The notes below the pieces were generated by a model, which saw only the letters and a list, made by a program, of their open reading frames with translations, had not been told where the DNA came from and did not search any database. Position numbers and translations under genes: made by a program. A stretch of DNA of 51,729 bases, from sequence record MT446399.1; one strand, written 5' to 3'. Of the stretch, positions 37,499-39,001 are shown one piece after another. Numbering within the stretch: the stretch's first letter is position 1; every line of letters starts with the position of its first letter. The DNA comes from Escherichia virus TH25.

Positions 37499-37639
37499 TC
37501 AGATGGCGCACGCACCACTTGAGCAGTCGTTATCGCCAGCACCAGGAACGATTGCTTCTTCGTCCTGCTTCTTCTTCAGTTCTTCAATTGCTTCTTCGGC
37601 AGCACCGAAGTCTAAATTATCAAGTGCATCAAAATCCAT
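37499..37639 (-). CDS. Small acidic protein
   Basis: ATG at 37639 with GGAG 8 nt upstream; 46 aa, acidic, C-terminal CSSGAC; upstream part of track ORF overlaps tRNA-like element. Confidence 0.3.
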   Translation of the reverse strand: MDFDALDNLDFGAAEEAIEELKKKQDEEAIVPGAGDNDCSSGACAI

Positions 37640-37669
37640 AAGGACTCCAGTGTTGCGGGTTATTAAAGC

Positions 37670-37765
37670 TGGTGGACAAGGTTGGATTCGAACCAACGAC
37701 ACATCTGTCGAACAGATTGCTCTACCTGACTAAGCTCTGGAGCAGACCTTCTGAGCTACTCGTCC
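37670..37765 (-). other. tRNA-like element (non-canonical: acceptor stem, D-arm and T-arm present, no 7-nt anticodon loop)
   Basis: Minus-strand GGACGAG..TA GCTCAG..GCTTAGTCAGGTAGAGC..GTTGG TTCGAAT CCAAC CTTGTCC A CCA; acceptor 7 bp with one G-U; 96 nt, too long for a standard tRNA. Confidence 0.3.
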
Positions 37766-38662
37766 AAAATTGGGTGGGTTTTGGTAACGCAGGTTTTCCC
37801 GAACTGCGAGGCTTGTAGAATCAGTGAGCCGCCTGTTTGGTATCTTCGGCCTGCCGTGGATTGATGGTCCCGACTCACTTCATCTCAGGTACGAGGCACT
37901 ACTTTGCGAGTGCAAGCAGGTGTTGAACCCAAGTACCAACAGGCAACCTAATTTATTCCACCGTTGTGGAAACCATTGGTTAGAGCAGTTTATTTCCATG
38001 CTCAGGGCAATTCACTTTAGGGCGAATTAGGTTATACAGTGCAGCTTCGAAGTCGCTGCCACAGGTTTGAGGTTCCTGTGTGGAGGGAAATCCAGAGGAG
38101 CACTTCCCCAAGGAGTTACGTTTCAAATTGGCATAGCTTCTCACACTAAACCAATTGAAGACATTCCAGTGTGCTCGTCCGTCCTCTAGAAATATCCAAC
38201 TGCATAATTAAGTTTGTACTCTGTCACATCCTACACGCGCGCTCTTAGGACTTAAGCTGGCTTACATCGCAGAATACAAATTAATTATTGCTCCGATTTA
38301 TTAATCACATCTCGAAGCCACAATGCGCCAAATTTGGTTACATGGGATTGGAAGACCACGGAGAGAACTTAAATTTAATTAAGCTGCAACTCGCATTTCA
38401 GAATCATTTGCACTTGTGTTTAGTGTTTAAAACAGTCGCAATAACTTCAGGCAGTTTAGGCCCGTCGTAAGACTCAGAAAACTACTTCAATGAACACTCT
38501 TGTCGGGGCCATGAGATTGGGCATCGGCCTACCTCCCAACTCTATTCACAAGAATGCTCATTGAAGCCCACTCACTCTGGAATGGGTTCAAGGCAGCACC
38601 GGACAACTTCCAGTGCACGCCAGATCGACTTAGCTTAGCTTCTCAAGTTTGCCCTTGGCAAC

Positions 38663-39001
38663 TTAGAATACCGGAGCTTCTTCAACAGCAGCTTCTGCTA
38701 CTACAGCAGCAGCTTCTTCTTCGACCTTAACTTCTTTCACGGTGTCAAACACAGTGCGTTCAACTTCCGGGCAACCAGCTTCAACCCACGGCAGATAGAA
38801 TGCCAGGAATGCAGCAGCGGTGTTGGTCTGCATTGAGCGAGAACGGTCAATCAGCTTGTTGGTGTTTGCGAACGCTTCAACAGCAGCTTCAATTTTAGCG
38901 CCGTTTTCCAGTTTAAAATCGTGTGCGTTACACTCAGCTTCGCTCAGGAACAGGGAACCATCGTTAGCTTCGTACTGAGTTACGGTTACAATCTTAGCCA
39001 T
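38663..39001 (-). CDS. Hypothetical protein
   Basis: 112-aa ORF with Ala/Glu-rich C-terminus; promoter-like motif 79 bp upstream. Confidence 0.4.
   Translation of the reverse strand: MAKIVTVTQYEANDGSLFLSEAECNAHDFKLENGAKIEAAVEAFANTNKLIDRSRSMQTNTAAAFLAFYLPWVEAGCPEVERTVFDTVKEVKVEEEAAAVVAEAAVEEAPVF

What the first reader, a model, noticed from the sequence alone, without database searches (positions are those of the whole stretch)
37640..38662. tRNA-like element followed by about 1 kb of ORF-free, structured-looking sequence
On the minus strand 37765-37670 reads GGACGAG-TA-GCTCAG...GCTTAGTCAGGTAGAGC...GTTGG-TTCGAAT-CCAAC-CTTGTCC-A-CCA. It has a 7-bp acceptor stem, a canonical D-arm, a canonical T-arm and an encoded CCA. 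But it is 96 nt long, has about 21 extra nt after the first GCTCAG, and its central hairpin has a 5-nt loop rather than a 7-nt anticodon loop. It could be an intron-containing or type-II tRNA, a tRNA pseudogene, or the tRNA-like end of a larger RNA. The adjoining 37766-38662 has no ORF of 60 aa or more on either strand and contains several extended hairpins, for example at 38045-38070.
Basis: seen in the sequence. Interest (0 to 1): 0.5.

Follow-up and report, generated by a model that had tools for sequence, protein, structure and literature searches.

The report
Phage RNA mimicking and targeting tmRNA
The "empty" kilobase of this phage genome encodes a structured RNA that copies the tag-coding part of the bacterial ribosome-rescue RNA (tmRNA) and also carries a stretch complementary to the host's own tmRNA, so the phage may silence or re-program ribosome rescue; the tRNA-like element beside it is an odd tRNA gene already annotated in related phages.

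Summary
The tRNA-like element is real (37765-37670, minus strand). It is an atypical tRNA, already annotated as tRNA-Arg in phiEcoM-GJ1 and ST32.

The more important feature lies upstream, at 38456-38276(-). It is a ~180-nt module derived from tmRNA, made of:
- a resume codon GCA with A at -4;
- a 10-codon tag, ANDSEMRVAA, then a stop codon inside a hairpin;
- two H-type pseudoknots supported by covariation;
- no tRNA-like domain.

ARAGORN and Rfam do not call it.

Its 5' part is a diverged reverse complement of E. coli tmRNA nt ~68-107, which covers the linker, the resume codon and codons 1-6. In all 32 representatives tested it pairs better with host tmRNA than with its own tag region.

Stems of 19 bp with swappable caps flank the module. 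Relatives occur in 758 of 50,697 phage records, including P1, CBA120, Felix-O1-like, T1-like and lambdoid phages. The copies I inspected were unannotated or overlapped only small hypothetical ORFs.

Best explanation: a phage RNA that anneals to host tmRNA, masks its tag template and probably presents its own. The pairing and the conservation are computed here. The mechanism is inferred. I found no prior description.

The parts
38485..38566 (-). Arm 1. A 19-bp stem (CUUCAAUGAGCAUUCUUGU / ACAAGAGUGUUCAUUGAAG) capped by a 44-nt variable domain. Possible RNase III site or cassette holder.
   Evidence: Fold -35.5 kcal/mol, z -5.9. GJ1, Bp7 and SKA49 carry a different cap and distal stem with matching complementarity; SA91KD and flopper carry an extra arm here.
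38477..38485 (-). Antisense block A, GUAGUUUUC. Complementary to E. coli tmRNA nt 99-107 (tag codons GAA AAC UAC).
   Evidence: The motif AGUUUUC(G) is the most conserved 5' motif of the family. Host nt 97-105 are predicted paired in 70-83 of 83 representatives.
38429..38441 (-). Antisense block B, UUGCGACUGUUUU. Complementary (13 bp, one G.U) to tmRNA nt 81-93, AAAAUAGUC-GCA-A, which includes the resume codon.
   Evidence: Blocks A and B together: 0 of 5000 shuffles reach this. Host nt 86-91 are predicted paired in 79-83 of 83 representatives.
38379..38411 (-). Tag reading frame GCA AAU GAU UCU GAA AUG CGA GUU GCA GCU UAA = ANDSEMRVAA*. No start codon. A at -4, as A86 in E. coli tmRNA.
   Evidence: Codon-position entropies 0.69 / 0.62 / 1.15; the last Ala uses all four GCN codons. 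Rfam tmRNA models align here below threshold.
38368..38383 (-). Hairpin CUUAA-UUAAAU-UUAAG holding the stop codon, like helix 5 of tmRNA.
   Evidence: Read from the sequence. The equivalent outer helix in the family is paired in 86% of cells, with changes on both sides in all 4 pairs (helix 1).
38328..38360 (-). Pseudoknot 1. Stem CGUGG/CCAUG (38360-38356 / 38345-38341). Its loop CCAA (38351-38348) pairs with UUGG (38331-38328).
   Evidence: helices 3 and 4: 100% and 99% of cells paired, 3 of 5 and 3 of 4 pairs changed on both sides. One search shows the same in 83 sequences.
38290..38327 (-). Pseudoknot 2. CGCAUU (38327-38322) pairs with GAUGUG (38311-38306). Stem GCUUCGA/UCGGAGC (38318-38312 / 38296-38290). 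Invariant A-rich loop UGUGAUUAAUAA.
   Evidence: Column pair 180:198 shows C-G 19, U-A 7, G-C 6 and is never broken.
38276..38456 (-). Extent of the match to covariance model R1, which was built from 29 other phages without this window or its near relatives.
   Evidence: 103.4 bits, E 2.5e-20, the only hit in the window.
38204..38288 (-). Arm 2. A 19-20-bp stem (AUAAUUAAUUUGUAUUCUG / CAGAGUACAAACUUAAUUAU) with a 46-nt variable cap.
   Evidence: z -2.2. Flopper and Bp7 carry a second tandem arm closed by the same stem sequence; the cap differs between the window and all relatives.
37766..38203 (-). Lineage-specific structured RNA of unknown role. SA91KD lacks roughly 38189-38022.
   Evidence: Fold z -2.5. 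The internal ORFs match no PHROG family. Parts are conserved in more distant Chaseviridae.
37670..37765 (-). It has an oversized D-loop. Its identity is ambiguous: Arg(UCG) by tRNAscan-SE or GenBank annotation in relatives, Leu(CAG) or Ser by ARAGORN in relatives.

Best explanation
Window 38566-37670 (minus strand) is a non-coding RNA locus. It lies between a gene of unknown function (phrog_17419) and the lysis genes of a phiEcoM-GJ1-like phage (Chaseviridae).

Core module (about 38485-38290). This is a derivative of bacterial tmRNA that kept the mRNA-like half and lost the tRNA-like half.
- Kept: an A-rich linker with A at -4, resume codon GCA, the 10-codon tag ANDSEMRVAA, a stop codon in a hairpin, and two H-type pseudoknots.
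- Added: directly upstream sits a diverged reverse-complement copy of the host tmRNA segment that holds the linker, the resume codon and the first six tag codons.

Proposed mechanism (inferred).
- The RNA is transcribed with the neighbouring genes.
- It is possibly trimmed at the two flanking 19-bp stems (RNase III) and at the downstream tRNA (RNase P).
- Its antisense domain then anneals to the single-stranded mRNA-like region of host tmRNA, which masks the host resume codon and tag.
- The phage linker and resume codon emerge from the end of that duplex next to tmRNA pseudoknot 1. I therefore think the host tRNA-like domain plus SmpB most likely carries the phage template into stalled ribosomes, which then add the phage tag instead of ANDENYALAA. 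In effect this would be a two-piece tmRNA whose acceptor piece is the host's tmRNA.
- A simpler version is silencing of host tmRNA only.

The tRNA-like element at 37765-37670 is a separate, atypical tRNA gene at the 3' end of the unit.

Shown here: the anatomy, the covariation, the coding-type conservation of the tag, the complementarity to E. coli tmRNA, and the distribution. Inferred: the annealing in vivo, the processing, and the tag replacement.
For: tmRNA-like tag module.
- Tags in 126 pattern matches are, apart from a few coding false positives, 10 aa plus stop, AN[DE]....[AV]A.
- Third codon positions vary most, and the last Ala uses four synonymous codons.
- There is no in-frame start; a TAG lies at -24 in the common type (read from the sequence).
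- Rfam alpha_tmRNA and tmRNA_permuted models align to this region below threshold.
- Direct alignment to E. coli ssrA covers only the tag region.

Structure. Pseudoknot helices are 99-100% paired with many changes on both sides. The covariation score is 0.355 against 0.175 for shuffles and at most 0.118 for slid controls.

Membership. Model R1, built without this lineage, hits the window at E 2.5e-20.

Antisense domain.
- The best alignment to the reverse complement of ssrA falls on nt 68-106 or 80-105 in most of the 31 independent representatives, usually above the best of 200 shuffles.
- Duplex energies are -42 to -50 kcal/mol, z down to -6, in the commonest type.
- Pairing with host tmRNA averages -39.6 kcal/mol against -20.4 for the RNA's own tag region, and the host is stronger in 32 of 32.
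- Host nt 86-91 are predicted paired in 79-83 of 83.
- For the window alone, 0 of 5000 shuffles match the two collinear blocks.

No tRNA-like domain in cis.
- ARAGORN finds no tmRNA in 85 representative loci.
- Several loci have what look like sigma-70 -35/-10 hexamers, read by eye, just upstream of the antisense domain, with unrelated leaders.

Spread. 758 phage records match, including P1 and a lambdoid prophage where it lies between Q and the holin gene.
Against: - No experiment: neither the RNA, nor its pairing with tmRNA, nor tagged proteins have been observed.
- The U-rich half of the antisense domain can also pair with the RNA's own A-rich linker. That local hairpin shows compensatory changes between Erwinia phage Y2 and locus L029, read by eye from the alignment. 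Part of the complementarity may therefore serve an internal fold.
- In the window's own lineage the antisense domain is split by a 35-nt insertion, and whole-region duplex z-scores are weak (-0.2).
- Host-phage covariation could not be tested: the Acinetobacter and Aeromonas phages carry the enterobacterial-type sequence, and host tmRNAs other than E. coli were not available.
- Whether a ribosome could load a template that is tethered only by base pairing is unknown.
- An imperfect 25-50-bp duplex might instead just be cut by RNase III.
Confidence: 0.5

Rival explanations
1. Pure antisense silencer. The RNA anneals to host tmRNA and only blocks or destroys it (for example through RNase III), so trans-translation is shut off during infection. 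The tag-like frame and pseudoknots would be inherited scaffold, or a decoy for tmRNA-binding proteins such as S1 or SmpB, and would not be translated.
For: It rests on the same complementarity data. It needs no unprecedented ribosome step. Phage RNAs that pair with host regulatory RNAs are known (own knowledge: AgvB and AsxR of Sakai prophages). A tRNA-like-domain-only tmRNA from phage DS6A is reported to inhibit tmRNA (PMC4131195).
Against: The tag shows coding-type constraint: constant length of 10 codons, variation concentrated at third positions, four synonymous codons for the C-terminal Ala, conservative D/E and L/M/V changes, and an invariant A at -4. A mere scaffold would not need these. 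The RNA's own tag has diverged exactly where it would otherwise pair with the antisense domain, which suggests both parts must stay free.
Confidence: 0.25
2. A self-sufficient but non-canonical phage tmRNA. A tRNA-like domain would be supplied in cis or by another phage RNA: the atypical tRNA at 37765-37670, or the tRNA-like caps of arms in other phages. It would work with the tag module as a two-piece tmRNA.
For: A tRNA-like element with an encoded CCA lies in the same unit. Arms in other phages can contain D-loop/T-loop tRNA-like folds (Magnus, L014, L046) or true tRNAs (L040, L108). Natural two-piece tmRNAs exist (PMC11915505).
Against: - The window's tRNA has A3-U70 rather than G3.U70.
- Its acceptor stem is closed on itself.
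- I found no complementarity between it and the module when looking by eye; this was not computed.
- Erwinia phage Y2 has the module and no tRNA in the 3.1-kb locus examined.
- Arm caps are hypervariable rather than conserved.
- No conserved cis partner exists for the 5' block.
- ARAGORN and Rfam find no tmRNA.
Confidence: 0.1
3. A non-functional relic or generic leader. The region would be a decayed, captured piece of host ssrA plus spacer DNA around a tRNA gene, serving at most as a processing or antitermination leader for the lysis or tRNA genes, or as a recombination hotspot for cassette exchange.
For: It lies upstream of lysis genes (Chaseviridae, lambdoid prophage) or tRNA genes (T1-like phages, P1). 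The arms are gained, lost and swapped between near-identical phages.
Against: The module is kept in 758 records across at least seven unrelated phage groups, with compensatory changes in four helices, strong model scores and coding-type constraint. In T1-like phages what appear to be sigma-70 promoter hexamers lie directly upstream of it.
Confidence: 0.08

Closest known systems
tmRNA (SsrA, 10Sa RNA; Rfam RF00023 and the permuted forms RF01849 and RF04321)
   Same: GCA resume codon preceded by an A-rich linker with A at -4. A 10-codon tag starting AND and ending in Ala-Ala. A stop codon in a hairpin. H-type pseudoknots after the tag. Direct sequence similarity to E. coli ssrA across the tag region.
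   Different: No acceptor stem, no T-arm and no CCA belonging to the module. Below every Rfam tmRNA threshold and invisible to ARAGORN. It carries a reverse-complement copy of the tmRNA linker-and-tag segment that no tmRNA has.
Two-piece (circularly permuted) tmRNAs of Alpha- and Betaproteobacteria and cyanobacteria
   Same: The coding RNA and the acceptor RNA are separate molecules held together by base pairing. That is how I propose this module uses the host tmRNA.
   Different: In two-piece tmRNAs both pieces come from one gene and pair through the acceptor stem and helix 2 (PMC11915505). Here the proposed pairing is through the mRNA-like region of a complete host tmRNA, and the partner is encoded by a different genome.
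Phage-encoded tmRNAs (mycobacteriophage Bxz1 group, Bacillus phage G) and the tRNA-like-domain-only tmRNA of mycobacteriophage DS6A
   Same: Phages that carry trans-translation RNA parts. DS6A shows that a partial tmRNA can act as an inhibitor (PMC4131195).
   Different: Those are standard tmRNAs, or only the tRNA-like half. This is the opposite half plus an antisense domain, and it occurs in Enterobacterales phages that are not on those lists.
Phage or prophage RNAs that base-pair with host regulatory RNAs (anti-sRNAs AgvB and AsxR; own knowledge, not checked here)
   Same: A phage-encoded RNA whose conserved single-stranded segment is complementary to an abundant host RNA.
   Different: The target would be tmRNA rather than an Hfq-dependent sRNA, and the phage RNA also carries a translatable template and pseudoknots.
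Large ornate phage-associated RNAs GOLLD and ROOL
   Same: A long, multi-domain structured RNA in phages, next to or containing tRNAs, with variable domains. In other members, a kissing-loop complementarity I read by eye (GGCUGAU/AUCAGC).
   Different: No Rfam match to either family. Different hosts. Neither is known to contain a tmRNA-like tag module.

Membership tests
tmRNA | tRNA-like domain: a 7-bp acceptor stem formed by the 5' and 3' ends, a G3.U70 pair, a T-arm and a 3' CCA | tested here: not met
   ARAGORN finds no tmRNA in the window or in 85 representative loci. Leaders upstream of the module are unrelated. The nearby tRNA has A3-U70 and its own closed acceptor stem.
tmRNA | Tag reading frame without a start codon, resume codon with A at -4, C-terminal Ala-Ala, then a stop codon | tested here: met
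   ANDSEMRVAA* at 38411-38379. The family tags are 10 codons long, and the codon-position pattern fits peptide selection.
tmRNA | Pseudoknots flanking the tag region | tested here: met
   Two H-type pseudoknots 3' of the tag, with covariation. Pseudoknot 1 is replaced by a possible simple hairpin, which rests only on reading the alignment.
tmRNA | Reaches the curated score of an Rfam tmRNA model | tested here: not met
   Best scores are 12.5-27 bits against gathering scores of 47-50. Nothing is reported at gathering thresholds.
tRNA | Cloverleaf with a 7-bp acceptor stem, a T-arm with the TTCGAAT loop, a discriminator base and CCA | tested here: met
   Read from the sequence. In most relatives the G5.U68 pair is G-C; CCA is kept in all seven relatives aligned.
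tRNA | D-arm of normal size and a 7-nt anticodon loop giving a defined anticodon | tested here: inconclusive
   The loop between GCTC and GAGC is 30 nt. The central hairpin has a 5-nt loop (or 7 nt if G32-C38 is left open), and that loop varies: TTCGA, TAAGA, TTAGG in near-identical phages. Programs disagree in relatives: Arg, Leu(cag), Ser(gct) or no call.
tRNA | Reaches the Rfam RF00005 gathering score (29 bits) | tested here: inconclusive
   The window copy scores 27.9 bits as a local match. Homologues score 41.5-45.6 bits over the full length.
trans-acting antisense RNA against host tmRNA (proposed) | A conserved segment complementary to the target beyond chance, and more complementary to the target than to the RNA itself | tested here: met
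trans-acting antisense RNA against host tmRNA (proposed) | Physical pairing with the target in infected cells, and an effect on trans-translation | not testable with these tools
   Needs RNA-RNA interactome mapping, gel shifts, mutant phages and tag proteomics.
GOLLD / ROOL large phage RNAs | Match to the Rfam family models | tested here: not met
   No hit to either family even at E up to 10 over 37500-38800.

The most novel reading that the evidence does not exclude
A phage RNA parasitises the host's ribosome-rescue system. It docks by antisense pairing onto the mRNA-like region of host tmRNA, hides the host tag template, and places its own linker, resume codon and tag frame where the host's would be. 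Stalled ribosomes rescued by host tmRNA-SmpB would then append a phage-specified tag (AANDSEMRVAA here; AANDDVVLMAA, AANEEMYLAVA and others elsewhere). In these tags the ClpX (LAA) and SspB (Tyr7) determinants are shifted or lost. This would be the first case of trans re-templating of tmRNA, present in hundreds of Enterobacterales phages including P1.
Probability: 0.35. Interest if true: 0.95.

Novelty: categorically new. Interest (0 to 1): 0.85.

Why it matters
If this is right, many well-studied Enterobacterales phages (P1, CBA120 and Vi1-like, Felix-O1-like, T1-like, lambdoid, G7C- and phiEco32-like, Chaseviridae) carry an overlooked RNA aimed at trans-translation, the main bacterial ribosome-rescue pathway.

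- It would show how phages deal with the flood of broken mRNAs and stalled ribosomes during infection, for example after attack by toxin or abortive-infection nucleases.
- It would be a natural example of tmRNA working with a template supplied in trans.
- It would explain a recurrent 'empty' region next to phage tRNA genes that annotation pipelines either leave blank or fill with spurious small ORFs.
- It is directly testable with tag proteomics, RNA-RNA interaction mapping and phage mutants.
- Even if only the silencing version holds, it would be, as far as I could find, the first natural antisense RNA against tmRNA.

Tried and rejected
- ARAGORN and Rfam at default thresholds found nothing. 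Only sub-threshold Rfam hits pointed to tmRNA.
- I looked for a tRNA-like domain in cis: a 5' acceptor strand upstream of the module, 'CCACCA' motifs (these turned out to be the 3' strand of a GUUGUGGUG/CACCACAAC helix), and T-arm-like motifs in arm caps (hypervariable, not conserved). Rejected.
- I searched the same strand of all loci for a partner complementary to GCGACUUUGCGG. There was no consistent hit.
- An alternative reading frame starting at the overlapping AUG/GUG was rejected. Its second codon position would be the most variable one, and its length is not conserved.
- Host-phage covariation using Acinetobacter and Aeromonas phages was uninformative, because they carry the same enterobacterial-type sequence.
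- The pattern scan of species-representative genomes returned mostly chance matches in AT-rich genomes. The six true hits were all of the enterobacterial sequence type; five are named Enterobacterales genomes, and I did not check the organism of the sixth (L225).
- Nine literature searches and one supplement look-up found no description of the element, its tags or an anti-tmRNA phage RNA. The P1 genome paper is not held; the P1 record annotates only a 'dicF-like region' that ends at the start of the module.
- The first naive all-column covariation scan was useless, because one-sided changes flooded it. It was redone requiring changes on both sides.
Full report
CONTEXT. The window is a phiEcoM-GJ1-like myophage (Chaseviridae, Carltongylesvirus-like), 88-95% identical to many Escherichia and Yersinia phages. 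Genes around the finding run on the minus strand. Upstream is a 112-aa gene (39001-38663, phrog_17419, function unknown). Downstream are a small ORF and an Rz-like spanin (37490-37254). No sigma-70-type promoter or intrinsic terminator was found on the minus strand, so the region is probably read through from an upstream phage promoter. GJ1 annotates one before the 112-aa gene.

THE OBSERVATION.
- ARAGORN does not call it.
- The Rfam tRNA model scores it 27.9 bits, under the gathering score of 29, and only locally. It scores homologues in GJ1, SA91KD, SKA49 and PYps16N at 41.5-45.6 bits over the full length.
- GenBank already annotates the homologue as tRNA-Arg ('may contain an intron') in phiEcoM-GJ1 and as tRNA-Arg in Ecp_YSF. 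The ST32 paper describes a 95-bp tRNA-Arg (PMC6266442).
- In seven close relatives the acceptor stem, T-arm and encoded CCA are kept, and G5.U68 becomes G-C in most.
- The 21 extra nucleotides are rewritten in GJ1 and SKA49. The 5-nt loop of the central hairpin changes (TTCGA, TAAGA, TTAGG) while its stem is constant. SA91KD lacks six bases of the second GCTYAG copy.
- Programs read the relatives as Arg(UCG), Leu(CAG), Ser(GCU) or nothing.

So it is a real but atypical tRNA of uncertain identity, and it is not new.

The 'no ORF of 60 aa or more' statement is slightly wrong. The + strand holds ORFs of 68 and 60 aa. They and a 54-aa minus-strand ORF match no PHROG family, and the ORFs annotated here differ between related records.

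WHAT THE ORF-FREE REGION CONTAINS. A sensitive blastn showed that positions corresponding to 38439-38289 match distant Chaseviridae, and that 38357-38289 matches many unrelated phages, always in unannotated DNA.
- Aligning four of these revealed a tmRNA-like tag frame: GCA AAU GAU UCU GAA AUG CGA GUU GCA GCU UAA = ANDSEMRVAA* in the window; ANEEVYLAVA, ANDDVVLMAA and ANDNEMRAAA in the others. The E. coli tag is ANDENYALAA.
Apart from a few coding false positives, every tag is 10 codons plus stop, AN[DE]....[AV]A.
- In 36 distinct tag sequences the codon-position entropies are 0.69, 0.62 and 1.15. The last Ala uses GCC, GCU, GCG and GCA. That is the signature of selection on a peptide.
- There is no start codon in frame. 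A at -4 is kept in every aligned sequence; it is the equivalent of A86, which from my own knowledge is the key nucleotide for frame selection on tmRNA.

STRUCTURE. In 32 diverse sequences (alignment A2) my proposed helices behave as follows:
- Stem Pa: 100% of cells paired, 3 of 5 pairs changed on both sides.
- The Pa loop paired with a downstream UCGG/UUGG/CUGG/UCGA (pseudoknot 1): 99% paired, 3 of 4 pairs changed on both sides.
- GCAC:GUGU (pseudoknot 2): 100% paired, with one pair showing C-G, U-A and G-C.
- Whole-structure covariation score 0.355, against 0.175 for shuffles (0 of 500 reach it) and at most 0.118 for slid partners.

RNAalifold independently recovers Pa and pseudoknot 2. A covariance model built from 29 other phages, leaving out this lineage, finds one hit in the window: 38456-38276(-), 103.4 bits, E 2.5e-20. 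E. coli ssrA itself scores only 15.8 bits. The anatomy is therefore that of the coding half of a tmRNA.

NO tRNA-LIKE DOMAIN.
- ARAGORN in tmRNA mode finds none in 85 representative loci, though ordinary tRNAs often lie 130-700 nt downstream.
- Rfam tmRNA models align only around the resume codon, the tag and the first pseudoknot.
- In several phages what look like sigma-70 -35/-10 hexamers, read by eye, lie directly upstream of the module, with unrelated leader sequences. There is therefore no conserved 5' acceptor strand.
- The window's tRNA cannot be the missing half. It has A3-U70, a closed acceptor stem, and lies about 610 nt beyond the tag's stop codon. Erwinia phage Y2 has the module and no tRNA in the 3.1-kb locus examined.

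THE ANTISENSE DOMAIN. The two most conserved 5' motifs, AGUUUUCG and GCGAC(U), were noted before any comparison with the host. They are the reverse complements of E. coli tmRNA C98-U105 (inside the tag codons GAC GAA AAC UAC) and G87-C91 (the last three linker bases plus the first two bases of the resume codon).
- Local alignment of each 5' region to the reverse complement of ssrA lands on nt 68-106 or 80-105 in most of the 31 independent representatives. Scores are 25-36, against shuffle maxima of 20-29.
- RNAduplex gives -42 to -50 kcal/mol (z -2.4 to -6) for the commonest type.
- The domain pairs with host tmRNA at a mean of -39.6 kcal/mol, against -20.4 for the RNA's own homologous region. 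The host is stronger in 32 of 32. The phage tag has therefore diverged exactly where it would otherwise pair with its own antisense domain.
- Across 83 non-redundant copies, host nt 86-91 are predicted paired in 79-83, nt 97-105 in 70-83 and nt 75-80 in 70-77.
- In the window the domain is split. GUAGUUUUC (38485-38477) matches nt 99-107. After a 35-nt insertion, UUGCGACUGUUUU (38441-38429) matches nt 81-93. None of 5000 shuffles gives two collinear blocks of this size.
- Variants seen in the alignment (Y2 CGAUUAUUUUU, L044 GUGAUUAUUUUU, L014 GCGGCUGUUUUU) keep pairing through C/U opposite G and G/A opposite U. I read this by eye.
- Caveat: the U-rich end can also form a local hairpin with the RNA's own A-rich linker, with compensatory changes between Y2 and L029. 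This too was read by eye from the alignment.

FLANKS.
- The module sits between two 19-bp stems: Arm 1 at 38566-38485 (z -5.9) and Arm 2 at 38288-38204.
- Their caps are swapped, duplicated or deleted among near-identical phages.
- In the other phage groups the same architecture uses different stem sequences (CUAUCAGGUAAGAGCAUUG / CAGUGCUCUUUCCGAUAG). The caps there are sometimes tRNA-like or true tRNAs.
- Long stems conserved in geometry but not in sequence suggest processing sites (RNase III, inferred) or cassette holders.
- The remaining 438 nt (38203-37766) is lineage-specific and moderately structured (z -2.5).

DISTRIBUTION.
- A 190-nt core query hits 758 of 50,697 phage records: Ackermannviridae (CBA120, Ag3, Magnus), Felixounavirus, G7C- and phiEco32-like podophages, T1-like phages, lambdoid HK633, Chaseviridae, and P1.
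- In P1 it lies in the ban-operon leader, between a 'dicF-like region' and trnA/trnT, with tag ANDDLMMVAA.
- In E. coli O26:H11 11368 it lies between the antiterminator Q gene and the holin gene of a prophage; one variant has matches in 170 of 5426 E. coli genomes.
- The six true hits among species-representative genomes are all of the enterobacterial sequence type; five are named Enterobacterales.
- Features under the matches are 'none' or small hypothetical ORFs.

MECHANISM.
- Shown: a tmRNA coding half under peptide-type selection, lacking a tRNA-like half, fused to a conserved antisense copy of the host tmRNA linker, resume codon and tag start.
- Inferred: the RNA anneals to the accessible mRNA-like region of host tmRNA and masks its resume codon.
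- Geometry, read by eye: the phage strand leaves the duplex at the end next to tmRNA pseudoknot 1. It continues with an A-rich linker of about 11 nt in the common type, the same length as the E. coli C78-G90 linker, and 15-17 nt in the Chaseviridae type. It then reaches its own resume codon.
- I therefore think tag replacement is the most likely function: the host tRNA-like domain plus SmpB delivers the phage template.
- Plain silencing is the main rival.
- From my own knowledge of ClpX and SspB recognition, the phage tags shift the Leu one position away from the C-terminal LAA and mostly lack Tyr7. They may therefore change the fate of tagged proteins.

COMPARISON AND NOVELTY. The module works like a tmRNA coding piece but fails the membership tests for tmRNA: no tRNA-like domain, and below all Rfam thresholds. 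Published phage tmRNA lists name mycobacteriophages, Bacillus phage G and the tRNA-like-domain-only DS6A (PMC4131195). A 2025 database lists 79 phage tmRNAs found with ARAGORN- and Infernal-type tools (PMC11915505), which do not detect this element. Nine full-text searches, including the tag sequences themselves, found nothing. The tRNA part is already known. The tmRNA-derived antisense-plus-template module appears undescribed.

Noticed in passing
window 37711-37707 (loop of hairpin ATCTG-TTCGA-CAGAT) and the homologous positions in L127 and L129: The 5-nt loop (the 'anticodon' in the Arg reading) differs among otherwise near-identical phages: TTCGA, TAAGA (PYps16N), TTAGG (Bp7). The stem is invariant. 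This fits either a variable arm of a type-II tRNA or rapid change in the anticodon loop, as proposed for evasion of anticodon nucleases (PMC10264068).
   Followed up: partly
They behave like exchangeable RNA cassettes. SA91KD also lacks about 170 nt (38189-38022).
   Followed up: partly
L003 1560-1815, L004 1570-1925, L010 (offsets +120 to +510 from the resume codon): In T1-like, Ackermannviridae and prophage versions the module is followed by repeated units: GGUAAGAGCAUU[cap]AGUGCUCUUUCC plus a domain closed by GUUGUGGUG/CACCACAAC. That domain holds two hairpins whose loops (GGCUGAU and AUCAGC) are complementary, suggesting a kissing interaction. The Magnus cap looks like a type-II tRNA without CCA.
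   Followed up: partly
L236 2405-2506 (phage P1, 68791-68892): In P1 a 'dicF-like region' ending in a terminator-like hairpin abuts the module's 5' end, all inside the C1-controlled ban-operon leader upstream of trnA and trnT. A further CACAACAGGUAAGG arm start follows trnT.
   Followed up: no
L029 5702-6240 (minus strand): In one Chaseviridae-type contig the module is followed directly by a Phd/YefM antitoxin gene and a ParE_toxin-family (PF05016) toxin gene. The pairing is noteworthy because, to my knowledge, that family also includes RelE-type mRNA-cleaving toxins, which create the stalled ribosomes that tmRNA rescues.
   Followed up: partly
window 38180-38174: GGACGAG, identical to the 5' acceptor strand of the tRNA-like element, occurs a second time about 410 nt upstream. 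It may be a remnant of another tRNA-like unit, or chance.
   Followed up: no
L131 4643-5714 (E. coli O26:H11 str. 11368 prophage): About 1.07 kb of unannotated DNA between the antiterminator Q gene and the holin gene holds a full copy of the module (196 bits with model R1). It would then sit in the leader of the late transcript, the region where Stx phages carry tRNA genes and stx.
   Followed up: partly
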